Shown here one piece after another: positions 19,549 through 49,157 of a stretch of DNA of 57,402 bases. Location: IMG/VR virus record IMGVR_UViG_3300033150_001005, positions 1-57,402 of that record; one strand, written 5' to 3'. Below the pieces are notes generated by a model. It was not told where the DNA came from, searched no databases, and saw only the letters and a program-made list of their open reading frames with translations. Source of the DNA: a virus. Its lineage: Duplodnaviria > Caudoviricetes. The position numbers and the translations under genes were made by a program. Each line of letters starts with the position of its first letter. Positions within the stretch are counted from its first letter, which is position 1.

Positions 19549-19573
19549 GGTTGATTCTCCGAAAGAAGGGGAA

Positions 19574-19677
19574 GGAGAGGCGCTCGCTGTGCTTGGTGCT
19601 CTCGACTACTTTGGCTCGCTCCAGCGGTTTGGTGCTCTCTTGATGTATGGCTCGCCTTACGGTTTGAGCGCCTCTCC
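19574..19677 (-). ncRNA. TIGR-like mini-array (2 x 36-nt units) inside a 12-bp inverted repeat
   Basis: + strand repeats at 19594, 19612, 19630 and 19648 (tggtgctctc/tggctcgctc), 18-nt period; flanks ggagaggcgctc 19574-19585 and gagcgcctctcc 19666-19677. Confidence 0.8.
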
Positions 19678-19691
19678 CTTTATTTTAGCGC

Positions 19692-20903
19692 CTAAAAGCT
19701 GGACGCGTAAATTACAGCATCGCTCCGATAGGTGGTGAGCGCCAGCCGCTCTTCGGCTCGGATCGCCACGAGGTTCTTAGTGAAATAATCCGAGTGCTCG
19801 GTGCTGATTACCACCTGAGCCTGCTGACGGTCCCAGAGCGCAACGTGGGTAGCAAAAGCGCCCACAAGCGCAGTGCCAGCGGTCATTGCGGTAGTCGTCG
19901 CTACTGGCAGTCCCCACAGGGTAGGCTCAGCAACACCCTGCGGCCCGCCAAGCAGATACCGGCCAGTGCCCGCGGCGCGCTCCTCCGTCTTCAAGGTCTG
20001 AATCAATCGCCAATCGGTAGGGTGCATCACGACACCGGTAGCCGTCAGGTTCGCAGCCTCGATCTGTTCGATCATCCGGGCAACCTTATCGATCTTAGTA
20101 TCGTTGGTTTGCCCATATGTGGAGCTATCGTAGGCCGTCGCCTCATTGGTCAAGCCGCTGAGGTTTTGCCCCGTGGCATCGCCGGACAGGATCTGTTTGT
20201 CTTCCTCGTCCATCAGGCCGTCGATGAGCCGCTGGTTAATATAGGCTTGCAAACCCTGGAAGTCATCCAGGATTTGCCGGGATGCCGGAATCCAGTGTGC
20301 GATGGTGCGAACGTTCTCGTAATCGATCGTAAAAGTGAGCGCGGATTCCTCCTTGGCCGAAGCCTCGACCTGCGGCGAAGCGTTGCTCGTGAAGACGTTC
20401 TCCTTCACGAATTCCACCGCATTATTGCTCGTGGTGAATCGCGGAATCAGATCCCGCATACGGTTGCGCCGCACGCCCGGCTTGACGATTCCCGGCACGC
20501 GTGCAGGTACCAGAATGCCCGGCGTCGAGCTACCGACCGCCGAACTCGTGATCGTGGTCTTGAAATCCCCCGGAAAGAACGTCTTGACCGGCACCTCCAG
20601 CGAAATACCGCGGATGTGACCATCACTCCGAACGTGCCCAGCGAACTCCTTGAAGGCATCGTTCTCGATGATCACCTCACCAATGGACCTCGTTTCAGCG
20701 ACAGTGTTCGGCGCGATGTTGCGCTGTTGTGCCGCCTCAAGTTCATCCAGGCGGCGCAAAGCCCTTTCCGCCTTTTCCAATGCCGGCTTGGCCGGTGCAC
20801 CCAGCGCCTTCAGCTCCTCGTAGTGCTGCTTCCACATCTCGCGCTGGGCTTCAATTGCTTGCATGACGTCATTCTTGACGTCTTCCAACGTATGTTCAGG
20901 CAT
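19692..20903 (-). CDS. Major capsid protein, HK97 fold
   Basis: VRTIAHWIPASRQILDD, FTKNLVAIRAEERLAL. Confidence 0.97.
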   Translation of the reverse strand: MPEHTLEDVKNDVMQAIEAQREMWKQHYEELKALGAPAKPALEKAERALRRLDELEAAQQRNIAPNTVAETRSIGEVIIENDAFKEFAGHVRSDGHIRGISLEVPVKTFFPGDFKTTITSSAVGSSTPGILVPARVPGIVKPGVRRNRMRDLIPRFTTSNNAVEFVKENVFTSNASPQVEASAKEESALTFTIDYENVRTIAHWIPASRQILDDFQGLQAYINQRLIDGLMDEEDKQILSGDATGQNLSGLTNEATAYDSSTYGQTNDTKIDKVARMIEQIEAANLTATGVVMHPTDWRLIQTLKTEERAAGTGRYLLGGPQGVAEPTLWGLPVATTTAMTAGTALVGAFATHVALWDRQQAQVVISTEHSDYFTKNLVAIRAEERLALTTYRSDAVIYASSF

Positions 20904-28882: not shown

Positions 28883-28956
28883 TGGCTGGAGCGCGGGGGC
28901 TCGAACCCCGATCCCCGGAATCAAAGCCCGGTATCCTCCCATTGGACGACGCTCCA
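28883..28956 (-). tRNA. tRNA-Gln(TTG)
   Basis: 74-nt cloverleaf: acceptor tggagcg/cgctcca, anticodon arm ccggg-ctTTGat-tccgg, GGTTCGAG T-loop, CCA end. Confidence 0.9.
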
Positions 28957-34794: not shown

Positions 34795-35004
34795 TTAGTC
34801 ACCCTTCAGCCAGCGTCGGAACCGCCCTCTTGACTTGTTGTCCGGATCATGCCAACTTACGCCGTAGATCCGCCGGCTGAAATCGCCCCAAAGTTTCTCT
34901 ATCTCTCGACGGTTGAGACCGCAGCATTCCGGGACGTACCAGTCAAGCCACTGCACGTCGAGCTCGTGTATCGGGTTAGCTACGTCATTCCTTGCTTTCG
35001 TCAT
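34795..35004 (-). CDS. Hypothetical protein
   Basis: ORF between rep and dnaB. Confidence 0.5.
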   Translation of the reverse strand: MTKARNDVANPIHELDVQWLDWYVPECCGLNRREIEKLWGDFSRRIYGVSWHDPDNKSRGRFRRWLKGD

Positions 35005-35968
35005 ACAGCCTCCCGAATGGATCTTCCGGCTCCGGAATTTTGTCCAGATCGCGCTTTTCCCGGAGCCACCGGTGCAACGCTGGCCAGTAGCGCGGCTCAA
35101 TGCCTTCGGCTAAGACGTGCTCCACCCATGCCTCGTGCCGTTTGTCAATCCGGGCTGCAGCTTCCGAATGCTGCGAATCGGGGAACTCACTCAATCTCTC
35201 TGCCCATGCTTGCTCAGCGAGAATTCGGCCGTCCTTCTTCGCGTGGCGTTCGTAGATCCGCTCAAATCTCTTCAAGCGATCTTCAGACACACACACCTCT
35301 GAGTCTTGCCGCGTTCCGCCAGACGGTGTTACCGTTACGATACGTTCGGTGTGTGTTGGCTCTGGCTTAGGCTCTGGCTCTGGTAGTAGAGTTTCTGTTG
35401 AATTTCTGTTGAATTTCTGTTGAATATCGGGGTTAACCACCAATGTTTTGTTAGACTTAGCCGATACACCGCGTATTGTGTGGCGCTGGTCTGTTGGGTT
35501 TCCGTTGAATCTTCGTTGAATCTTCGTTGAGTCTCTGTTGAGTTTCTGTTGAATTTCCGTTGAGTTTCTGTTGAGTTTCTGTACTGGTCTGCCGCGCGAT
35601 GGGTGGCGTGGATCGGAACCGTCCCACCATGTCAGCCCAGCCCGAGAGAGCGCGGTACGCCAAGTATTGTCCGCGTGCTCGGCAACGTCATGGATAACCA
35701 GCCGATGCGGCTCCGGCGCCGAGTCTACCCAACCCGTCTCAATGAGCAACTCGATCAGCTTGCCTTTCTCGCCAGTCCAGCCCAGCGCCGTCTCGATGAC
35801 GGCATCCGGCCACTTCCCGATGTCGCCCTGGATGGCGTACTTCGACGCCCAATGCCACAGTGACTCTAATATCCCTACAGCTAGCGTCTTGGGCATTCCT
35901 AGACCCGCCTCGCTGAGCCGATCAGCGAGCAGTTGGATCTTAGGGTGTTCAGGGGTTCCGCGTTTCAT
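34985..35968 (-). CDS. Replication initiator protein
   Basis: HPK..LA..L, G.L..LW.WA N-terminus; low-complexity iteron region; upstream of dnaB. Confidence 0.8.
   Translation of the reverse strand: MKRGTPEHPKIQLLADRLSEAGLGMPKTLAVGILESLWHWASKYAIQGDIGKWPDAVIETALGWTGEKGKLIELLIETGWVDSAPEPHRLVIHDVAEHADNTWRTALSRAGLTWWDGSDPRHPSRGRPVQKLNRNSTEIQQKLNRDSTKIQRRFNGNPTDQRHTIRGVSAKSNKTLVVNPDIQQKFNRNSTETLLPEPEPKPEPTHTERIVTVTPSGGTRQDSEVCVSEDRLKRFERIYERHAKKDGRILAEQAWAERLSEFPDSQHSEAAARIDKRHEAWVEHVLAEGIEPRYWPALHRWLREKRDLDKIPEPEDPFGRLYDESKE
35390..35582. repeat. Iterons / probable replication origin inside rep
   Basis: Two blocks of tandem 11-nt repeats (about tttctgttgaa) at 35390-35424 and 35498-35582. Confidence 0.8.
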
Positions 35969-35980
35969 GGTCCGTCTCAA

Positions 35981-40209: not shown

Positions 40210-40264
40210 TGGCAGGCGCGGCAGGACTCGAACCTGCGACCCTCGGCTTAGAAGGCCGATGCTC
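40210..40264 (-). mobile_element. attP core: 3' two-thirds of tRNA-Arg(TCT)
   Basis: - strand gagcatcggc-ctTCTaa-gccga-gggtc-gcaggTTCGAGTcctgc-cgcgcctgCCA; 5' acceptor and most of the D arm missing; 22 nt from the integrase stop. Confidence 0.9.
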
Positions 40265-40286
40265 GCAAATTCCGTGGTAACGCATG

Positions 40287-41486
40287 TCACTGAATGCTTT
40301 GGACTTGCCCGCCAGCATCCTCATCGCATGTATCAAATGCACCACAAAACCATCCCAATTCGCCCAGAATCGCCTCCGGAATCGCCCGGCGCCGCTCCAC
40401 GTCTTGGACGCTGTAGTACAACGTCATGCTCGCGTCACGATGCCCCATCGTCCGCTGCCGATCTTCCAACGGAATCCCTGGAATCTGGCCGGCTAGCGCC
40501 GAGTGTGCACGCCGAAAGCCGTACCACGTCACCGGGAATCCGAGCGTGTCGGCTAGCTTGCGGAATTGCCGGTTGGCGATGTTGTGCGAGTCAACCGGGG
40601 TTCCCCGGCGGCTCTGGAACAGCGGCGCCTCCGGGTCCTGGCGCTTGGAACGTTCAACCAGCGCCGCCAGCATCCCGGCCAGCTCCGGCGTCAAGCCCTC
40701 GATCCGTTCCCTGGCCGATGTCTTCAAGCTGCCATACTCGCCGCGGTAGTAATTCTCGCGGACGGCTACTGAGTAGGGCGCTAGCATGATTCCGTCCACC
40801 TGCACAGGTTGGGGCGTGAAGTTGCAATTCCGCAGACGGAGTCCACACAATTCCGCCGGCCCCATCGAAGTAGCTACCGATAAAAGTGCCATCTCGCGTG
40901 CTGGCGGCGTGAGCCGTAAGAGCACCAGGCGCAATTGTTCCACCGTGTACGTAGGGCGCCGCTCGTGCCGCACCGCGGGCAAGCTCACCAACCGTGCCGG
41001 ATTCTCCGCCTGGTACAATCGCAGTCTCCGCGCGTGCTCAAAGATGGCGGACAGGCAGTGCTTCGCGTGCAACACCGTCTGCACACTGTAGCCTCGCTCG
41101 AATAGCTGCCGCACAATGCCCTCAATGGTGCCCGCGTCCACATCTGACAGCCTGCACCCGCCCACCAGCGGTTCCAGCATCCGCCACCGGGTGGCATAGT
41201 GCGTTCGCCCGGCCTTTTTCAGCCGCCACACCACCTGTGGCTCAAATTGCGACGCCCAAAACTCGCTGAGTGTCGTGCTGCTGGAGGGGCGGCAGTTGCG
41301 GAGATTGATAGCCGCCATGAACTCTCGGCGCTTCCGCTCGGCCTCCCGGACGCCGACATCTTTCTTGGAACCGATGTACTCGTACCGCCACCTCCAATTC
41401 CCTTCCGCGTCGTACTCCCGGTATTGCACCGTCCAGGTGCTGCGAGACTTCACCCATCTACCCTTCTGACTTCTCGGTCGTGCCAT
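40287..41486 (-). CDS. int: Tyrosine integrase
   Basis: ELCGL, LKT, Y.FRR, MGH...MT..Y; adjacent attP. Confidence 0.92.
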   Translation of the reverse strand: MARPRSQKGRWVKSRSTWTVQYREYDAEGNWRWRYEYIGSKKDVGVREAERKRREFMAAINLRNCRPSSSTTLSEFWASQFEPQVVWRLKKAGRTHYATRWRMLEPLVGGCRLSDVDAGTIEGIVRQLFERGYSVQTVLHAKHCLSAIFEHARRLRLYQAENPARLVSLPAVRHERRPTYTVEQLRLVLLRLTPPAREMALLSVATSMGPAELCGLRLRNCNFTPQPVQVDGIMLAPYSVAVRENYYRGEYGSLKTSARERIEGLTPELAGMLAALVERSKRQDPEAPLFQSRRGTPVDSHNIANRQFRKLADTLGFPVTWYGFRRAHSALAGQIPGIPLEDRQRTMGHRDASMTLYYSVQDVERRRAIPEAILGELGWFCGAFDTCDEDAGGQVQSIQ

Positions 41487-41533
41487 CGTTGCCTCCATGG
41501 GCATTGTGGCACAAACGGGATTGGGCATCATTC

Positions 41534-41776
41534 TCATCTCAGCGCTTCAGATTCGAGCCGCGGCTCCGCCATCTGTTCGTTGTGCACCTCACGTAAGCCG
41601 AGCTGGCTAGATTCACCAGCCACAGCCATCAGACCCTCAACGCTGAAGCCGTGATGGCGGCACAGACGCCAGGCAGCTTTAGGCTGATTATATGGCGGGA
41701 GGGCTAACGCGGAAATAGCCATTGCGAACCCCTGATAGAAGCCCCGCTCCCAATCGCTCAGCTTTTTTCGTGCCAT
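41534..41776 (-). CDS. Hypothetical protein
   Basis: ORF in operon. Confidence 0.5.
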   Translation of the reverse strand: MARKKLSDWERGFYQGFAMAISALALPPYNQPKAAWRLCRHHGFSVEGLMAVAGESSQLGLREVHNEQMAEPRLESEALR

Positions 41777-44748: not shown

Positions 44749-45210
44749 CTACCTCCTGTCGGTGTCGCTTCCCTGGCTATTCTCCACCGGCGCATCCGGC
44801 TGCTTTGCCTTGCCGGGATCACCGAGTTCCGCTTCCAGCCAATCAGCGAACGGACCGGTCGAAACTTCGATCTTATAATCCATTGTTTTTCCGTCCGTGA
44901 CGCGGAATGTCGTAATGCCATATAGGTCGATCCCCGCCTTGTCGCCGTATTTGGTCGGCACACGCTCAAGCATGATGTCGGGCTTCGGATTATCTGGACT
45001 GACAACCTGGAAATCCCAAAGCCGGTGAATGGCAGGCGGCACTGGTTTATCGTGTTCCAGATGCTCCGCAGCCTGCCGCAAGATTAACACTTGGAAGTTT
45101 CGGATGGCTCTTATGGGATCGTCCGTTGCAACGTCGCAACCAGCCACGGAAGGAACGACGACTCTCCATTTGTCCCCGTTTCGCATCATCTTGATTCGGA
45201 TCTGATTCAT
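44749..45210 (-). CDS. Hypothetical protein
   Basis: GGAGG SD, ATGA coupling. Confidence 0.55.
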   Translation of the reverse strand: MNQIRIKMMRNGDKWRVVVPSVAGCDVATDDPIRAIRNFQVLILRQAAEHLEHDKPVPPAIHRLWDFQVVSPDNPKPDIMLERVPTKYGDKAGIDLYGITTFRVTDGKTMDYKIEVSTGPFADWLEAELGDPGKAKQPDAPVENSQGSDTDRR

Positions 45211-45902
45211 GCCTGCCTCCTGCCGGCACGAACAACCTGCTCGGCGATAACCCTGACTCCCGGCAGTTGCGCTGATCCCCTCGTGGCCCGCGCCCACTGG
45301 TTCAGTGCCTTCATGTTCGGCTCAATGAGAGCGGGCGGAACGGTGCCGTTGACGACGCCGCCAGCCAGTGCCTTCAGGTCAGTCACCTCCGCGCGAAAAA
45401 CGGTTACCGTCGAGATCCCTTTCGTCTTTGGGGGCTCTGGCGGCTTTGAAACAGGCAAAGGCTGCCGTCCCGCTTCCTGAAGGATCGCCTCAACCTCAGC
45501 GGCCGCTGCTCCCTCTTTCTCGGCTTCAATAGCGGCACGTAGCGCCTGCTCTTCCGCTCGCCGCCTTGCTTCTTCCTCGGCCTTGCGCCTGGCCTCCTCA
45601 GCCTCTCGCTGCCTCTTGAGCCGGTAGTCCCTCGTGCGTTGCTTGATCACGGCTTCCGCCTGTCGGAGCGGCTCCAACATGCGTTTCTCGGCGGCGACGA
45701 CGGCCTTCCACGCCTCATGCGCCTTCCGCTTGATTGGACCATGGTGTGCCGTGATCTCTTTCTCCAGATCCTTGATGCCGAGCAGCATTTCATCCGCCTG
45801 CATCAAGGCTTCATCGCTAGTGATCTGAAGCGCTTGCGCCCGCTCCGGCCACGTCATGGCCTGCTGCTCCAGTTCCCTGGGTGCTACCGCCGCTTCAGCC
45901 AT
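45207..45902 (-). CDS. Coiled-coil protein of the recombination module
   Basis: Long helix; C-terminal P.MKALN..A....LPGVRV. Confidence 0.7.
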   Translation of the reverse strand: MAEAAVAPRELEQQAMTWPERAQALQITSDEALMQADEMLLGIKDLEKEITAHHGPIKRKAHEAWKAVVAAEKRMLEPLRQAEAVIKQRTRDYRLKRQREAEEARRKAEEEARRRAEEQALRAAIEAEKEGAAAAEVEAILQEAGRQPLPVSKPPEPPKTKGISTVTVFRAEVTDLKALAGGVVNGTVPPALIEPNMKALNQWARATRGSAQLPGVRVIAEQVVRAGRRQA

Positions 45903-46494
45903 TCGTCCTGCTCCTTTCCTGCTTTGCCCTCATCACCGTCAGGGCGGCGAGGAAGATGTTGAAGTCCTCCTGCCACTGCTTGCTTGAGAACTCTTGCACC
46001 TGATAGGCGCCGTCTGATTTGAGCGCCACCGCCATGCGGCGGTAGCTTCGCGGCTCCTCGAAGAACGCTGCGTAAGCCGCAAGCTGGATGCTCACCCACC
46101 ACGGCATGGCGCCCGTCTTGATATCAATGATCCACTTGTCGCCGGCCGGAAATGCACCCAGCCGGTCCAGCGTGCCAGCGTAGCCATACGTCGGATTGTA
46201 GCCGCGATGCTCGATCAATTCGGGCTTGAATTGTGTCTCCTGCCGGAAGCGCCGCCATGCCTCAACGTAGCCGCGCAGCGAGGCGTCAAGGGTGTTCCAG
46301 TCCAGGTCGTTCTCGTCGTCATACCGGGTGGCCTCGTGCACAGCAATGCCCCGGCGCAGCGCGCGATCCCGAACGTCCCAGGCAAGGTGAGAGTAGTCCG
46401 AGATGCCTACGCCTTCCAGGATGGAAGTGACGTTCGGGACGACCGTGCCGCCGACACGGTACGTATGAGTGTCTGAATCGAATTCAAGCGCCAT
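45895..46494 (-). CDS. PD-(D/E)XK exonuclease (Cas4/RecB-like)
   Basis: P.VTSIL, RG..VH, YAGTLD, IIDIKT, QLAAY. Confidence 0.88.
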   Translation of the reverse strand: MALEFDSDTHTYRVGGTVVPNVTSILEGVGISDYSHLAWDVRDRALRRGIAVHEATRYDDENDLDWNTLDASLRGYVEAWRRFRQETQFKPELIEHRGYNPTYGYAGTLDRLGAFPAGDKWIIDIKTGAMPWWVSIQLAAYAAFFEEPRSYRRMAVALKSDGAYQVQEFSSKQWQEDFNIFLAALTVMRAKQERSRTNG

Positions 46495-46505
46495 CGCAGC
46501 TCCTG

Positions 46506-46700
46506 TCAGGAATACCAACGCGGAATCGCCCGGAAGAGTCTCGGAATCTCTGGATCAATCTTGGCTAGCACCGCAAGCAGGGCTTCATCGGCCCTAATGT
46601 GGGCTACTTCAATTTCATCATCCGACTCCGCATATTCCCTGCATTCTTTGAGTTTCGCCTTCAGGTTTTTAATGTCCTCCGGCGTTATTAGCATGTCCAT
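46506..46700 (-). CDS. Hypothetical protein
   Basis: D.E.AH..ADE.L...WY pattern. Confidence 0.6.
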   Translation of the reverse strand: MDMLITPEDIKNLKAKLKECREYAESDDEIEVAHIRADEALLAVLAKIDPEIPRLFRAIPRWYS

Positions 46701-46712
46701 TGTTCTTCCCCT

Positions 46713-46931
46713 CTATTCACGTCGTAATCCTTGATTTTGGTCCGCCCATCTTTCGCAGACCCCCCTCGCCAACTCATCAACCATGTCCCGCAGCTTATCC
46801 AGAGCCGCCATTGCCACGACAACACGGTCGGCTATCTTTCCGAGGTCATTATTAAGCGCCTTAAGTTGGTTCAGGATCGCTGCGGATTGGTGCAACTCCT
46901 TCACTGTTTGCTCGTCGTTAAATGCGGTCAT
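46713..46931 (-). CDS. Small coiled-coil protein
   Basis: ATG 46931 with a GGAGG SD supplied by the last array unit. Confidence 0.6.
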   Translation of the reverse strand: MTAFNDEQTVKELHQSAAILNQLKALNNDLGKIADRVVVAMAALDKLRDMVDELARGVCERWADQNQGLRRE

Positions 46932-47120
46932 TTGTTCGCTCCTCCCGGTTGGCGCTCTCAACCTATATGGCTCGCTCTTACCTCCTGGCACTCTCTGTTT
47001 CACTGGCTCGCTCGCGTGGCTTGGTGTTCTCTCGTCGTTTGGCTCGCTCCCCCTATTTGGTGCTCTCGGCAAGGTTGGCTCGCTCAGGTTTTTTGGTGCT
47101 CTCGCCGCCGCTGGCTTGAT
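46932..47120 (-). ncRNA. TIGR-like dual-repeat array (5 x 36-nt units)
   Basis: 11 repeats at exact 18-nt spacing (46932 to 47112); - strand alternates GAGCGAGCCA and GAGA(G/A)YRCCA with ten different 8-nt inserts. Confidence 0.85.
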
Positions 47121-47128
47121 GCTTTCGC

Positions 47129-47162
47129 AAAAAGCGGGGAGCAGCGCCGCCACCGCTCCCCG
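47129..47162 (-). terminator. GC hairpin plus U-tract just upstream of the array
   Basis: cggggagcggtg-gcgg-cgctgctccccg-cttttt on the - strand. Confidence 0.6.
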
Positions 47163-47186
47163 GATCGCAGGAGGGAGGAAAAGGCA

Positions 47187-47399
47187 TCATGACCGGTCCT
47201 CCAGCCACTTAGCGGCCAGCGCAAAGGCCGCCGCCCGATCCCGCTCGATCTTCTGGCGCTCCGCCCATCGACGCAGCCGCCGCCGCTCGTCGGGTGAAAG
47301 CGGCTCGCCCTCATCATCGGCACCGGGCAGGAAATCGTCACCCTCCGGCAAGCGCTCCTCGTCTTGCAAGCGGAACAGGTGCTCTAGCGATTCGTGCAT
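47187..47399 (-). CDS. Hypothetical protein
   Basis: TGATG coupling. Confidence 0.55.
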   Translation of the reverse strand: MHESLEHLFRLQDEERLPEGDDFLPGADDEGEPLSPDERRRLRRWAERQKIERDRAAAFALAAKWLEDRS

Positions 47400-47680
47400 C
47401 AGACGGGAACCCCCTTCTGCCGCAAGCGCTCCGCCATGTCGCTGTCACGCCACGCCCTGAATGCTGCCACCTCTTCAGGGAAGCCGCGTGCCAATCGCTC
47501 CAGGTTCTCCGGATCGGCCAGGCGGATTGCCTCAAACAAAGCCGCCTTGAAGTCCCCAAGCATCCGGAACTGCCACATGATGATCAACGTCTCGCGCTTG
47601 CCGAATTCATGGCGCCGCAATGCCTCGTGCAAGCGCTCCCACGTGAAGGTGGATGCTAAGGGATCAACTGCCGTAGCCAT
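47399..47680 (-). CDS. Hypothetical protein
   Basis: G.F..AL..AI..AD..N..RL..GFPE pattern. Confidence 0.65.
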   Translation of the reverse strand: MATAVDPLASTFTWERLHEALRRHEFGKRETLIIMWQFRMLGDFKAALFEAIRLADPENLERLARGFPEEVAAFRAWRDSDMAERLRQKGVPV

Positions 47681-47855
47681 CGCTCTTCGCCTCCATTCTC
47701 TTCCGGAGCCGCTGCTCCGTCTGTGCCATCAGCTCCTTAATCTCCTTCACTGTGCGCAGGGAGCAGTCGACCTCCACATGGCGGCCATGCTCGTAGCCAG
47801 CCCAAAATCCCGTGGCGCCAACGAGCAGAAAGAGCGCTAATTCTATGAGCATCAT
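47664..47855 (-). CDS. Small membrane-anchored protein
   Basis: ALFLLVGATGFWAGY transmembrane segment. Confidence 0.5.
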   Translation of the reverse strand: MMLIELALFLLVGATGFWAGYEHGRHVEVDCSLRTVKEIKELMAQTEQRLRKRMEAKSDGYGS

Positions 47856-48021
47856 CTCAACCACCCCACCGCCGCGACGATAGTCATGACCATCAGCGCA
47901 CCGTAGGTCCACTTCCAGCGGCGGTACCACCGTGTGCCCCATTGTCGCCAGATCTCAGCGTTCTCTTGCTGTACTCTGAGGGCGTGGAGAAGGCTGGCAA
48001 AACGCTGGGACTGTGTCTCGG

Positions 48022-48231
48022 TCATCGGATAAAGAGCCTCCGGAGGGACGCTTTCGGATAGTTGCCGAGGGCGTCGTAGTGCCCCAAGTCGGGGCGGCGT
48101 GACTTTCGGAAAGGCACAGGGTCCGGCCCGAGATCCCGCATCCGCTCGTGGATGCGATCAAGCCGAAGCTCGCCTACGGGTCTCGGTGCAACCGGGTTGC
48201 TGCACCATGGCGTCAGGCTAACGATTCTCAT
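48022..48231 (-). CDS. Hypothetical protein
   Basis: ATGA coupling, GAGG SD. Confidence 0.45.
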   Translation of the reverse strand: MRIVSLTPWCSNPVAPRPVGELRLDRIHERMRDLGPDPVPFRKSRRPDLGHYDALGNYPKASLRRLFIR

Positions 48232-48557
48232 GCAGCCTCCTCTTCAAGATCCCGCCGCGTGGCATTCACGTGCGAGATGGTGTTCATGATGCCATTGCGC
48301 CACCGGCTGTTCTCGACGAGCAGTCGGCGGAAGAATTGATTGACAACAACCTCCACCACGAGCACGGGAACACCAACGGTGTCCGACACTTCCTGCGGAA
48401 TGTGCTTCTGGACGGTTCCCTGATGGAGCAGTCTTGCGGCGTGCCCCTCGATGAGATCGTGGAGGGGGCGAGAAATCCTTGCAGAATCATAGATTTGCGC
48501 CCGCCCGGCTGGCTTTCTCGGGGCTTTCGGGGCATGATTGGAGCTATGATTGCTCAT
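48228..48557 (-). CDS. Hypothetical protein (CII position)
   Basis: Follows the Cro-position gene. Confidence 0.5.
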   Translation of the reverse strand: MSNHSSNHAPKAPRKPAGRAQIYDSARISRPLHDLIEGHAARLLHQGTVQKHIPQEVSDTVGVPVLVVEVVVNQFFRRLLVENSRWRNGIMNTISHVNATRRDLEEEAA

Positions 48558-48745
48558 GACTTTTTGATCCTCGCATCAGCATCCAGCTTTGCCGCGATCG
48601 CCTCGGCGACGTAGCGGCGCAATTCAATCCCCCGGAGCGCAGCCGCGGCCTTTGCTCTGCGGTGAAGATCCTCGGGGATATCAATGCTGATGCGCTTGAG
48701 CTTTGATAGCTCTGAGATCTGTGATATGCTGCCTGCGTGTGGCAT
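48554..48745 (-). CDS. Ribbon-helix-helix regulator (Cro position)
   Basis: KRISIDIPEDLHRRAKAAAALRG. Confidence 0.8.
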   Translation of the reverse strand: MPHAGSISQISELSKLKRISIDIPEDLHRRAKAAAALRGIELRRYVAEAIAAKLDADARIKKS

Positions 48746-48752
48746 CAATTAC

Positions 48753-48781
48753 AGTCTAGTCCAAATGTCCAAATGTGTCAA
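48753..48781 (-). promoter_or_regulatory. Early promoter with an operator-like tandem repeat, leaderless
   Basis: TTGACA-catttggacatttggac(17)-TAGACT, 7 nt before ATG. Confidence 0.8.
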
Positions 48782-48806
48782 GGTGTATTTTCACAAAAGG
48801 GCATGA

Positions 48807-49157
48807 GTGAACACGATGGTGTGGGATAAGTACATCAAGATCGGCGTCACCGAGGACGAACACAAGCAGATCAAAACCAAGCTCGGTGCCGCGGGACTCT
48901 CGTTTCAAGATGTGGGCTATCGCCTTTGGATTGATTGGCTTAAGCGGGGTATGGAGCGTGCGGGACCTGATCCGCCGCAGCCGAATCGCTCCCGTTATCT
49001 GCCGGAGAACGAGGAGTTCCATGATCTGTTGGAGAAGATCTTGGTAGGGGGCAAGCCCGGGGAGCGTGCAGGACTCCTGCTGCTGCTCCGAAACACGGCC
49101 GGCGACTCCCGGCCGTCGCCCCGGGCTTCTAGGAAACACCACGTCTCTGGAGGGTAA
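48807..49157 (+). CDS. Probable repressor with an RHH-like N-terminus (CI position)
   Basis: KYIKIGVTEDEHKQIKTKLG..GLSFQ; divergent from the RHH gene. Confidence 0.6.
   Translation: MNTMVWDKYIKIGVTEDEHKQIKTKLGAAGLSFQDVGYRLWIDWLKRGMERAGPDPPQPNRSRYLPENEEFHDLLEKILVGGKPGERAGLLLLLRNTAGDSRPSPRASRKHHVSGG

What the first reader, a model, noticed from the sequence alone, without database searches (positions are those of the whole stretch)
46932..47120. TIGR-like guide array with two alternating repeats and a 36-nt unit in the early operon
Seen: the - strand reads AGCCA gcggcggc GAGAGCACCA aaaaacct GAGCGAGCCA accttgcc GAGAGCACCA aatagggg GAGCGAGCCA aacgacga GAGAACACCA agccacgc GAGCGAGCCA gtgaaaca GAGAGTGCCA ggaggtaa GAGCGAGCCA tataggtt GAGAGCGCCA accgggag GAGCGAACAA. 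The period is exactly 18 nt, the two repeat types alternate strictly, and all inserts are unrelated. Established: TIGR arrays of TIGR-Tas systems use 36-nt units of edge repeat, spacer A, loop repeat and spacer B with box C/D-like motifs. Inference: this locus yields five dual-spacer guide RNAs for an RNA-guided DNA-binding system.
Basis: partly seen in the sequence, partly recalled or inferred. Interest (0 to 1): 0.95.

Follow-up and report, generated by a model that had tools for sequence, protein, structure and literature searches.

The report
Orphan TIGR guide arrays in phage
A complete soil phage genome carries two genuine TIGR guide-RNA arrays but no gene for the Tas protein that uses them, and the guides of one array match the capsid gene of its closest relatives rather than its own, which points to phages fighting their kin with a borrowed RNA-guided protein.

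Summary
Window 46932-47120 (- strand) is an exact 18-nt-period array of two alternating 10-mers with unrelated 8-nt inserts. It is non-coding.

The same repeat pair forms arrays next to a ~270-330-aa gene in 74 of 89 other viral contigs. That includes 22 of 22 records at least 90 % complete. The gene's product matches solved Tas proteins (TasH chains E 4e-11; 9mty_A E 3.5e-14). So this is a real dual-repeat TIGR array of a TasA family.

The window is a complete 57.4-kb genome with direct terminal repeats, and four independent searches find no tas in it. Its arrays are therefore orphans. A second, 2-unit array lies at 19581-19657, inside the hairpin downstream of the capsid gene.

In that array and its two close relatives, the guides match the major capsid gene in the published tandem-spacer geometry. 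L183's guide matches the window's allele 16/16. The window's guides match L183's alleles 15/16. Every guide has at least 3 mismatches to its own phage's allele. The mirror geometry gives 0 hits, and 0 of 1000 shuffles reach the observed count.

Most likely these are guide-only arrays that use a TasA supplied in trans against sibling phages. Targets of the reported array (array 1) remain unknown.

The parts
46932..47120 (-). Array 1, the reported finding. It has a 5'-truncated edge repeat (ATCAAGCCA) followed by 5 units of spacer A (8 nt), loop repeat (GAGAGCACCA type), spacer B (8 nt) and edge repeat (GAGCGAGCCA). The final edge is 3'-diverged (GAGCGAACAA). Spacer pairs are GCGGCGGC/AAAAACCT, ACCTTGCC/AATAGGGG, AACGACGA/AGCCACGC, GTGAAACA/GGAGGTAA and TATAGGTT/ACCGGGAG.
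   Evidence: Searches give the sequence and register. One search shows the same start and end forms in tas-linked arrays of G009 and G016. One search shows that the unit-3 loop GAGAACACCA is rare (1 of 748). One search shows the array is unstructured as RNA (z +0.5).
47125..47162 (-). Terminator-like hairpin (12 pairs, 9 of them G-C, then a T-run). It lies between the upstream 70-aa ORF and array 1.
46713..46931 (-). 72-aa ORF of unknown function that starts directly after array 1. Its Shine-Dalgarno sequence (GGGAGGAG) is formed by the last spacer plus the start of the last edge repeat. It is unrelated to Tas.
   Evidence: Searches find no Pfam or PHROG match. One search gives hhalign probability 0.04 % against the Tas alignment. 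One search finds no homologue in the other array loci.
47187..47399 (-). 70-aa ORF upstream of array 1, function unknown.
19581..19657 (-). Array 2, a 2-unit mini-array: edge-like AGGCGAGCCA, TACATCAA, loop, AACCGCTG, edge, AAGTAGTC, loop, AGCACAGC, then a 3'-truncated edge GAGCG.
   Evidence: It is conserved at the same place in the relatives L053 and L183.
19561..19679 (-). Hairpin that encloses array 2. The arms AGGGAGAGGCGCTC (19666-19679) and GAGCGCCTCTCCT (19573-19585) form a 14-bp stem, followed by a T/C-rich tail. In distant relatives an ordinary terminator hairpin occupies this position.
   Evidence: centroid fold; L185-L199 have plain hairpin terminators; arms identical in L053.
19692..20903 (-). 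Major head (capsid) protein gene. The array-2-type guides address this gene.
   Evidence: phrog_10, E 1.4e-63.
20227..20243 (-). Protospacer site 1 in the window's capsid gene (TATATTAA-C-CAGCGGCT). It is an exact 16/16 match, with a 1-nt gap, to the first guide of relative L183. The window's own guide has 3 mismatches here.
19783..19798 (-). Protospacer site 2 (window allele AGCACTCGGATTATTT). The window's second array-2 guide matches L183's allele 15/16 but its own allele only 11/16.
20116..20132 (-). Protospacer site 3 (TACGATAG-C-TCCACATA). It matches the first guide of relative L053 with 2 mismatches. L053's own allele has 3 mismatches to that guide.
40210..41537 (-). tRNA-Arg-like attP fragment (40210-40287) next to a tyrosine integrase (40287-41537). 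This marks a temperate phage. The fragment matches Bryobacteraceae and Solibacteraceae MAGs best.

Best explanation
Both loci are bona fide dual-repeat TIGR arrays. The edge repeat is GAGCGAGCCA, the loop repeat is GAGAGCACCA and the spacers are 8 nt. They belong to a TasA family (nuclease-less Tas) that is widespread in soil phages. This phage has the guides but not the protein.

Proposed mechanism:
1. The arrays are transcribed with their neighbours. Array 1 is the 5' leader of an early-operon gene. Array 2 lies in the hairpin after the capsid gene.
2. In a cell that also holds a TasA-encoding prophage or co-infecting phage, TasA dimers bind the transcripts.
3. The transcripts are cut into 36-nt tigRNAs.
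4. [quoted passage not shown]
5. For array 2 the targets are the capsid-gene alleles of sibling phages. The phage's own allele escapes through synonymous differences. The result would be heterotypic exclusion of close relatives by a DNA-bound roadblock.

Shown here: array identity, absence of tas, selection on the repeats, and guide-to-capsid matches in the correct geometry with self-avoidance.

Inferred: transcription, trans-loading, processing and repression. Array 1 probably works the same way against unsampled targets.
For: Array identity
- The repeat pair occurs in 109 viral stretches. These hold 184 arrays with strict alternation and an 18-nt register.
- A ~270-330-aa gene lies directly beside the arrays in 11 of 11 fetched (near-)complete genomes.
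- That gene's product matches PDB 9mty_A (E 3.5e-14), TasH chains (E 4.2e-11) and Pfam Transposase_20.
- tas census: 44 of 50 records, 30 of 38 and 0 of 1 (L053's record), giving 74 of 89. Among records at least 90 % complete, 22 of 22 have it.
- The window's array start and end forms are the same as in tas-linked arrays.

Absence of tas in the window
- The family HMM run over all six frames with filters off gives a best E of 0.97.
- The alignment search gives 0 hits at E<=10.
- PF02371 gives 0 hits and phrog_4285 gives 0 hits.
- The record has direct terminal repeats and 100 % estimated completeness.

Selection on the repeats
- Against L053 the repeats show 0 of 45 changes, and against L183 1 of 45.
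- Four-fold degenerate sites in the flanking genes differ by 0.36 and 0.23 respectively.

Targets
- Six guides from the three relatives were scanned against their structural regions. In the spacerA-gap-revcomp(spacerB) geometry they give 1, 3, 4 and 10 hits at up to 0, 1, 2 and 3 mismatches.
- The mirror geometry gives 0 hits at every threshold.
- Shuffled spacers average 0.010 hits (<=1 mismatch) and 0.153 hits (<=2 mismatches). None of 1000 shuffles reaches 4 hits at <=2 mismatches.
- All hits lie in the capsid gene. The alleles differ at synonymous third positions.
- Mismatches to the phage's own allele are 3, 4, 3, 5, 4 and 6. The best non-self mismatches are 1, 0, 2, 1, 4 and 5.

Availability of TasA in trans
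- 12 of 19 repeat-carrying MAGs encode this tas.
- The window's attP tRNA fragment matches the tas-positive Bryobacteraceae and Solibacteraceae MAGs G028 and G037 best (95 % over 55-56 nt).
- In G037 the tas gene lies among phage replication genes.

Published background
- TasA acts as an RNA-guided transcriptional repressor (bioRxiv 10.64898/2026.09.09.750476, section 12 read).
Against: - No Tas protein is encoded here, and no experiment shows that a foreign TasA loads these RNAs.
- The kin-targeting evidence rests on three lineages. Two are contig fragments (21-24 % complete) whose tas status is unknown.
- Two of the six guides have no close match among the sampled alleles (4-6 mismatches).
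- Array 1, the reported finding, has no identified target. It shows no near-self excess: 7 hits at <=3 mismatches against 8 for the mirror geometry, with shuffles at 7.6 +/- 3.4. Three IMG/VR scans gave no credible hit.
- No relative covering array 1 was found.
- A terminator-like hairpin lies just upstream of array 1 and no promoter was detected.
- One array-1 unit has a rare loop variant.
- Across all 764 units, exact protospacers are not enriched: 3 in the correct geometry and 1 in the mirror, against 1-6 in shuffles.
- The mismatch tolerance of this TasA is unknown.
Confidence: 0.6

Rival explanations
1. RNA decoy (anti-TIGR). The orphan arrays work through their repeats only. They soak up or mis-load the TasA of resident prophages or competitors and so protect the incoming phage. 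This would be analogous to repeat-mimicking RNA anti-CRISPRs.
For: - There is no tas in cis.
- The repeats are under purifying selection while the spacers change.
- Array 1 sits in the early operon and has no detectable target.
- A precedent exists for CRISPR (PMC10651486; search listing and start of abstract only).
Against: - Array-2 spacers are not free-drifting. They match capsid alleles of relatives in the exact TIGR geometry, so the spacer sequence matters at least there.
- Full units with two spacers and canonical array ends are more than a decoy needs.
Confidence: 0.15
2. Relic. The arrays are leftovers of a TIGR-Tas locus whose tas was deleted, for example by recombination between the arrays that flank tas. 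They no longer function.
For: - In relatives, arrays flank tas on both sides. A repeat-to-repeat deletion would therefore leave an array with canonical ends.
- One array-1 unit has a rare loop variant.
- tas-linked arrays are usually much longer.
Against: - Array-2 repeats and the enclosing stem are unchanged across lineages whose neutral sites differ by 23-36 %. About 10-16 changes would be expected, and 0-1 are seen.
- The guides track relatives' capsid alleles.
- Four of the five array-1 loops and all internal edges are consensus or common variants.
- Array 2 is 27 kb away from array 1, in a terminator loop rather than beside a former tas site.
Confidence: 0.12
3. Self-regulation. The guides act on the phage's own capsid gene (autoregulation of late expression) with imperfect pairing. 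The cross-matches would then come from recombination that swapped capsid alleles between lineages.
For: - The targets lie in the gene immediately upstream of the array.
- Capsid divergence is mosaic compared with neighbouring genes.
Against: - Every guide matches its own allele worse (3-6 mismatches) than the best non-self allele in 4 of 6 cases, and reciprocally between the window and L183.
- Published TasR data show single seed mismatches abolish activity (PMC12045711, section 7). Whether this holds for TasA was not tested.
Confidence: 0.05
4. Protein-coding tandem repeat. ORF 46713-47153 would encode a 6-residue periodic peptide.
For: One frame is open through the array and reads xxRAPxxxSEP.
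Against: - Arrays elsewhere shift frame freely. Of 340 off-register spacings, 231 are 1 mod 3.
- Several frames on both strands are open through such arrays.
- A strong SD and ATG follow the array.
- Array 2 has no ORF through it.
Confidence: 0.01

Closest known systems
Dual-repeat TIGR arrays of TIGR-TasA systems (Faure et al. 2025, PMC12045711)
   Same: - Alternating edge and loop repeats of 10 nt with 8-nt spacers (16 variable nt, as reported for SpTIGR) and 36-nt units.
- Both repeats end in CCA.
- The array has a 5'-truncated first edge and a 3'-truncated last edge.
- Spacers are hypervariable.
- Repeats are identical to arrays that flank a Tas gene in 74 of 89 other contigs.
- Targets are matched in the two-strand tandem-spacer geometry with a 0-1-nt gap.
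   Different: - There is no tas gene anywhere in this complete genome.
- The arrays are very short (5 and 2 units).
- They lie at two distant sites. One is in the leader of an unrelated small gene and the other is inside a terminator hairpin loop.
- The 5' motif of the repeats is GAG rather than the UG described for TasR arrays.
- No terminator follows array 1.
Virus-borne mini-CRISPR arrays without cas genes (Medvedeva et al. 2019, PMC6858448; abstract read)
   Same: - Short guide arrays (1-2 spacers there, 2-5 units here) are carried by a virus that lacks the effector genes.
- Closely related viruses carry guides against each other.
- The proposed role is heterotypic superinfection exclusion using an effector supplied in trans.
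   Different: - The guide system is different (TIGR/TasA rather than CRISPR-Cas).
- The hosts are bacterial soil organisms rather than Sulfolobales.
- The supplier of the effector here is probably another mobile element rather than the host's own immune system.
- The effector has no nuclease.
RNA anti-CRISPRs (Racrs; PMC10651486, search listing and start of abstract only)
   Same: Repeat-bearing non-coding RNAs in phage genomes that engage an effector the phage does not encode.
   Different: Racrs are solitary repeat units that act as inhibitors. Here there are complete units with two spacers, and at least one array has matching targets.
IS110-family bridge RNA / transposase
   Same: The partner protein of these arrays hits Pfam Transposase_20 and weakly hits the IS621 transposase 8wt6_A (E 0.49). 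PHROGs labels the family 'transposase' (phrog_4285).
   Different: - The TasA family has no DEDD/RuvC domain.
- The arrays are tandem 36-nt units, not a single two-loop bridge RNA.
- The window holds neither the protein nor element ends.

Membership tests
Dual-repeat TIGR array | Two distinct alternating 8-12-nt repeats | tested here: met
   Ten-nt GAGCGAGCCA and GAGAGCACCA types alternate strictly. Across the family there are 779 loop-to-edge and 746 edge-to-loop transitions, against 66 edge-to-edge.
Dual-repeat TIGR array | Short spacers of fixed length (about 9 nt; 8 nt in SpTIGR), giving a 36-nt unit | tested here: met
   All spacers in both window arrays are 8 nt. In the family, 1772 spacings are 18 nt and 92 are 19 nt.
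Dual-repeat TIGR array | Box C (CCA) at the 3' end and a shared box D motif at the 5' end of both repeats, covarying between edge and loop | tested here: inconclusive
   CCA is present in both repeats. In loop slots, positions 8-10 are 96 %, 100 % and 93 % conserved. Both repeats start with GAG, not the UG described for TasR arrays. The paper says these motifs can diverge but covary. Base-specific contacts were not tested.
Dual-repeat TIGR array | [quoted passage not shown] | tested here: met
   Array 1 runs from ...AAGCCA to GAGCGAACAA. Array 2 runs from AGGCGAGCCA to GAGCG. The same forms are seen in the tas-linked arrays of G009 and G016.
Dual-repeat TIGR array | Rho-independent terminator after the array | tested here: not met
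   Array 1 is followed directly by an ORF, and the hairpin lies upstream instead. Array 2 is enclosed by a 14-bp stem with a T/C-rich tail, which is only partly comparable. The paper describes this feature as typical, not obligatory.
Dual-repeat TIGR array | Variable spacers with conserved repeats among relatives | tested here: met
   There are 828 distinct units with all four bases at every spacer position. Between the window and L053, the repeats show 0 of 45 changes and the spacers 16 of 40.
Dual-repeat TIGR array | Spacer A and spacer B pair with opposite strands of adjacent target DNA (gap 0-2 bp) | tested here: met
   This is met for array-2-type guides only. Hits occur solely in the spacerA-gap-revcomp(spacerB) geometry, with none in the mirror geometry. 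I derived the geometry from the cleavage description in PMC12045711 section 7. Array 1 has no target found.
Dual-repeat TIGR array | Processed into 36-nt tigRNAs bound by Tas | not testable with these tools
Complete TIGR-Tas system | A Nop-domain Tas gene next to the array | tested here: not met
   There is no tas in the window. The same alignment query finds it in 74 of 89 other carriers. The window therefore holds orphan arrays, not a system.
TasA (partner protein family found in other contigs) | Tas Nop-like domain without a nuclease domain | tested here: met
   Matches to TasH chains and 9mty_A start at query residue 70-82 and chain residue 135-154. Only Transposase_20 is detected by Pfam. 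Pfam Nop PF01798 does not detect the family: 0 of 25 records, although 24 of those 25 hold tas.

The most novel reading that the evidence does not exclude
Some temperate phages carry TIGR guides without a Tas gene and use the TasA of other mobile elements (resident prophages or the competitor itself) to silence the capsid gene of their closest relatives. The guides and the synonymous sites of the capsid gene co-evolve in a kin-level arms race. This would give the first natural targets and a first biological role for TIGR-TasA: heterotypic superinfection exclusion. It would also show that TIGR guides can act as free-standing, tradable modules.
Probability: 0.45. Interest if true: 0.9.

Novelty: new variant of a known kind. 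Interest (0 to 1): 0.8.

Why it matters
The biological role and natural targets of TIGR-Tas systems are an acknowledged open question. The discovery paper states that genuine targets are hard to identify and that the function of nuclease-less TasA is unclear (PMC12045711 discussion).

This work offers three things:
1. A concrete, testable set of natural guide-target pairs: capsid-gene sites of three sibling phages, with self and non-self alleles that differ at a few synonymous positions.
2. Evidence that TIGR arrays exist and are kept under selection in a genome without tas. Annotation pipelines anchored on tas loci would miss such arrays (TIGRFinder).
3. A parallel with cas-less viral mini-CRISPR arrays. 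This suggests that guide-only parasitism of RNA-guided effectors is a general strategy in virus-virus conflict.

There are also practical points:
- The family's repeats are conserved across phages of 45-68 % GC.
- Pfam Nop misses its Tas protein.
- PHROGs labels the family 'transposase'.

Tried and rejected
Searches that found nothing
- blastn of 45000-49000 against GenBank phages gave no match.
- Rfam found only two tRNAs.
- Pfam Nop (PF01798) used as a Tas detector gave 0 hits in the window, 0 of 25 viral records and 0 of 19 MAGs above cut-off. I rejected it as a test, because 24 of those 25 viral records do hold tas by the family alignment.

Ideas rejected
- Protein-repeat reading: rejected because the arrays do not keep frame.
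- Neutral drift of the spacers: my first reading, where spacer divergence equalled 4-fold-site divergence. I revised it when the differences proved to mirror synonymous differences in the capsid targets.

Protospacer searches
- Self-targets of the 7 window units: 1 hit at 2 mismatches, against 0-4 in controls.
- 762 units against 12 genomes: 1 exact hit, against 0-3 in controls.
- 764 units against 1.3 Mb: 3 hits in the correct geometry and 1 in the mirror, against 1-6 in shuffles.
- Array-1 near-self sites: no excess.
- Three IMG/VR scans for array-1 units gave 18, 14 and 21 hits. The only hits in a phage with any homology to the window (4 near-identical contigs) lie in an intergenic terminator hairpin of a low-GC phage, so I judged them chance.

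Relatives of the early region
- None was found with the exonuclease in viral contigs (only about 31 % identity).
- None was found with the exonuclease in metagenome contigs.
- None was found with the Gp3-like protein.

More siblings of array 2
- The adaptor-protein search returned only the same two contigs.
- The metagenome pattern scan returned nothing.

Other
- The 72-aa ORF after array 1 is not Tas-like.
- No structure prediction, complex prediction or large protein-database search was run.
- Supplements of the TIGR papers (tables of tas loci and repeat alignments) were closed. They may already list this TasA family and its repeats.
- Literature searches for orphan TIGR arrays or natural targets found nothing in the held library. 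That is not proof that nothing is in print.
Full report
**1. The observation**

It begins with a 5'-truncated repeat (ATCAAGCCA). Ten 10-mers follow at an exact 18-nt period and alternate between GAGAGCACCA-type and GAGCGAGCCA-type. Unrelated 8-nt inserts separate them. The last repeat (GAGCGAACAA) touches the ATG at 46931.

The degenerate motif GAGMGMRCCA occurs 10 times in the window against 1.92 +/- 1.40 expected. None of 100 shuffles reaches 10. The matches form two clusters.

The window is a complete viral record of 57,402 bp with direct terminal repeats and 100 % estimated completeness. It has:
- a terminase, portal, protease and major-head-protein module;
- an integrase next to a tRNA-Arg-like fragment;
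- an early operon with recombination genes.

**2. The array is not coding**

An ORF with a GTG start (46713-47153) reads through array 1 as xxRAPxxxSEP. The exact repeat pair occurs in 109 stretches of viral contigs, and these hold 184 arrays. Their spacings are:
- 18 nt, 1772 times;
- 19 nt, 92 times;
- 37 nt, 82 times.

Of the 340 spacings off the 18-nt register, 231 are 1 mod 3 and only 24 are 0 mod 3. No reading frame is maintained. ORFs in several frames on both strands run through such arrays simply because the repeats lack stop codons.

**3. What accompanies the arrays**

Clustering the ORFs of the 109 loci showed no conserved neighbour apart from the spurious through-array ORFs. I then fetched 11 (near-)complete array-bearing phage genomes, which span 45-68 % GC. 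One family of about 270-330 aa is present in 11 of 11 and lies directly beside the arrays.

This family matches:
- the solved chain 9mty_A (E 3.5e-14);
- TasH chains such as 21kl_A (E 4.2e-11);
- Pfam Transposase_20, the IS110 Nop-like domain.

The matches begin after a short N-terminal region and no nuclease domain is detected. The family is therefore TasA-type. PHROGs holds it as phrog_4285, labelled 'transposase'. Pfam Nop (PF01798) does not detect it: 0 of 25 records, although 24 of those 25 hold the gene. The discovery paper also needed a custom profile.

The anatomy of the arrays fits the published definition (PMC12045711, passages):
- two alternating 8-12-nt repeats;
- spacers of about 9 nt (16 variable nt in SpTIGR);
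- both repeats end in CCA;
- a 5'-truncated first edge and a 3'-truncated last edge.

The window's array starts and ends in the same way as tas-linked arrays in G009 and G016. The edge repeat is GAGCGAGCCA and the loop repeat is GAGAGCACCA. In loop slots, positions 6 and 7 vary. Position 5 is G in 98.9 % of slots. The window's third unit has A there (1 of 748). Its other loops are consensus or common variants.

**4. The window has no tas**

Four searches agree:
- An HMM of the family, run with all filters off over six-frame translations, gives a best E of 0.97.
- The alignment search gives nothing at E<=10.
- PF02371 gives nothing.
- phrog_4285 gives nothing.

The same alignment query finds tas in 44 of 50 and 30 of 38 other array-bearing viral records. 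It does not find it in L053's 12-kb fragment. That makes 74 of 89. Ten of the positives are the sequences from which the alignment was built.

Among records at least 90 % complete, 22 of 22 have tas. All 15 records without it are fragments of 70 % completeness or less. The window is the only complete carrier without tas that I saw.

Short arrays with no tas in the locus or in the MAG also occur on some MAG contigs (L119, L124, L126, L131, L134). Short arrays far from tas occur in tas-bearing phages too (G011, G017).

**5. Array 2 and its relatives**

Array 2 (19581-19657) has two units. It lies in the loop of a 14-bp hairpin downstream of the major head gene.

Two contig fragments, L053 and L183, are close relatives of the structural module, with 72-97 % amino-acid identity. 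They carry the same mini-array at the same place. More distant relatives have an ordinary hairpin terminator there.

Between the window and L053, the repeats and stem arms are unchanged (0 of 45 repeat positions) and the spacers differ at 16 of 40. For L183 the figures are 1 of 45 and 9 of 40. Four-fold degenerate sites of the flanking genes differ by 0.36 and 0.23. The repeats are therefore under purifying selection.

By contrast, spacers of tas-linked arrays turn over quickly. At tas 4-fold divergence of 0.03, only 3 of 10 units are identical. From 0.12 upward, spacer identity is at background (few independent pairs).

**6. Targets**

I derived the target geometry from the published cleavage description: cuts at the fifth spacer base on each strand, 8-nt 3' overhangs, and gaps of 0-2 bp tolerated. 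The target then reads spacerA, gap, revcomp(spacerB) on one strand.

A scan of 1.9 Mb of fetched DNA with the window's seven units gave four hits at up to 1 mismatch (controls 1-2). Two of them lie in the capsid gene of L183.

| Site | Window allele | L183 allele | Guide matches |
|---|---|---|---|
| Site 1, about 660 nt into the capsid ORF | TATATTAA-C-CAGCGGCT | TACATCAA-T-CAGCGATT | L183's guide matches the window allele 16/16 and its own 12/16. The window's guide matches L183's allele 15/16 and its own 13/16. |
| Site 2, near the 3' end, opposite strand | AGCACTCGGATTATTT | AGCACAGCGATTACTT | The window's second guide matches L183's allele 15/16 and its own 11/16. |
| Site 3 | TACGATAG-C-TCCACATA | not matched | L053's first guide matches the window allele with 2 mismatches and its own with 3. 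|

At site 1 the two alleles differ only at synonymous third positions.

Over the six guides, mismatches to the phage's own allele are 3, 4, 3, 5, 4 and 6. The best non-self values are 1, 0, 2, 1, 4 and 5.

In a focused test, the correct geometry gives 1, 3, 4 and 10 hits at up to 0, 1, 2 and 3 mismatches. The mirror geometry gives 0 at every threshold. Shuffled spacers average 0.010 and 0.153 hits at up to 1 and 2 mismatches. At <=2 mismatches, 0 of 1000 shuffles reach the observed 4. At <=1 mismatch, 1 of 1000 reaches the observed 3.

The spacer 'drift' at the neutral rate is therefore co-variation with synonymous sites of the target.

**7. Array 1**

Array 1 has five units and follows a terminator-like hairpin (47162-47125). 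It forms the leader of a 72-aa ORF. That ORF's Shine-Dalgarno sequence is built from the last spacer and the last edge repeat. The array is unstructured as RNA.

Its guides have no match or near-match in the window above background. No credible exact protospacer turned up in IMG/VR for the three units scanned. No relative of this genome region was found. Its targets are unknown.

**8. Where TasA could come from**

Of the 19 MAGs that carry the repeat pair (mostly Acidobacteriota), 12 encode this tas. The window's attP-like tRNA fragment matches the Bryobacteraceae MAG G028 and the Solibacteraceae MAG G037 best, at 95 % over 55-56 nt. Both are tas-positive. In G037 the gene lies among phage replication genes.

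This link is circumstantial, because tRNA genes are conserved.

**9. Interpretation**

The most economical reading is that these are guide-only TIGR arrays that depend on a TasA supplied in trans. At least array 2 directs that protein to the capsid gene of sibling phages while sparing its own.

A nuclease-less TasA represses transcription when guided to a gene (bioRxiv 10.64898/2026.09.09.750476, section 12). The discovery paper had proposed inter-element competition as a possible role without having natural targets.

The closest functional precedent is the cas-less mini-CRISPR arrays of archaeal viruses, in which closely related viruses carry spacers against each other (PMC6858448, abstract).

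The rival readings are:
- A repeat-only decoy role remains possible, mainly for array 1.
- A dead relic is unlikely for array 2, given the conservation of its repeats.
- Autoregulation is contradicted by the self-mismatch pattern.

**10. Limits**

- Only three lineages support the kin-targeting result, and two of them are fragments.
- No expression or processing data are available.
- TasA mismatch tolerance is unknown.
- The geometry is my derivation from text, although the mirror-geometry control supports it.
- Supplements of the TIGR papers were closed, so this TasA family and its repeats may already be catalogued.
- Searches of the held library for orphan TIGR arrays or natural TIGR targets found nothing.

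Noticed in passing
window 19581-19657 (-), within hairpin 19561-19679: A second, 2-unit TIGR mini-array with the same repeats. It sits in the loop of the hairpin downstream of the major head gene and is conserved in relatives L053 and L183.
   Followed up: yes
window 46929-46949 (-): The Shine-Dalgarno sequence of the 72-aa ORF (GGGAGGAG) is made of the last spacer plus the start of the last edge repeat. If TasA-dependent processing cuts in mid-edge as published, it would sever the SD from the ATG. Translation of this ORF could therefore depend on whether TasA is present. This is speculation only.
   Followed up: no
window 35392-35582: Tandem 11-nt repeats (TTTCTGTTGAA x3.1 and TCTGTTGAGTT x8.5) lie within or near ORF 34985-35980. 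They may be iterons of a replication origin.
   Followed up: no
window 28883-28956 (-) and 40210-40287 (-): A tRNA-Gln(ttg) gene, and a tRNA-Arg(tct)-like sequence that abuts the integrase gene (probable attP). The latter matches Bryobacteraceae and Solibacteraceae MAGs at 95 % over 55-56 nt.
   Followed up: partly
loci L145:2657-3466, L166:5646-6590 and others (alignment A1): The TasA family of these phages is missed by Pfam Nop (0 of 25 records) and is labelled 'transposase' in PHROGs (phrog_4285). Its C-terminal region has invariant Tyr and His residues (Y251, H258 in the first sequence). A recent preprint places a Y/H tigRNA-processing dyad in dual-repeat Tas proteins in that region.
   Followed up: partly
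viral loci L007-L115; genomes G001-G025: Identical edge and loop repeats are shared by phages from 45 % to 68 % GC that have almost no other genes in common. The tas-plus-array module therefore appears to move horizontally as a cassette. Arrays reach 84 repeats (L097).
   Followed up: partly
tas-linked arrays, e.g. L104 vs L086, L093 vs L047: Spacer content of tas-linked arrays is replaced very quickly compared with tas divergence. At 4-fold divergence 0.03 only 3 of 10 units are shared, and at 0.12 or more none are. No adaptation gene is evident.
   Followed up: partly
L077 unit ATCCTCGT/AATTGTGC; G017 about 51775 and L132 about 7692: One guide of another phage (L077) has an exact composite protospacer in the correct geometry, with a 2-nt gap, in G017 and in the G017-like MAG contig L132. 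It may be a second natural guide-target pair, but it is within chance expectation.
   Followed up: no
L126 3513-3594 and 5546-5627; L119 5226-5289; L134 2876-2956: Short arrays (2-5 repeats) lie on MAG contigs with no tas in the 8-kb locus or in the MAG. They may be further orphan arrays. In L126 one spacer (AAATGCGC) occurs twice.
   Followed up: partly
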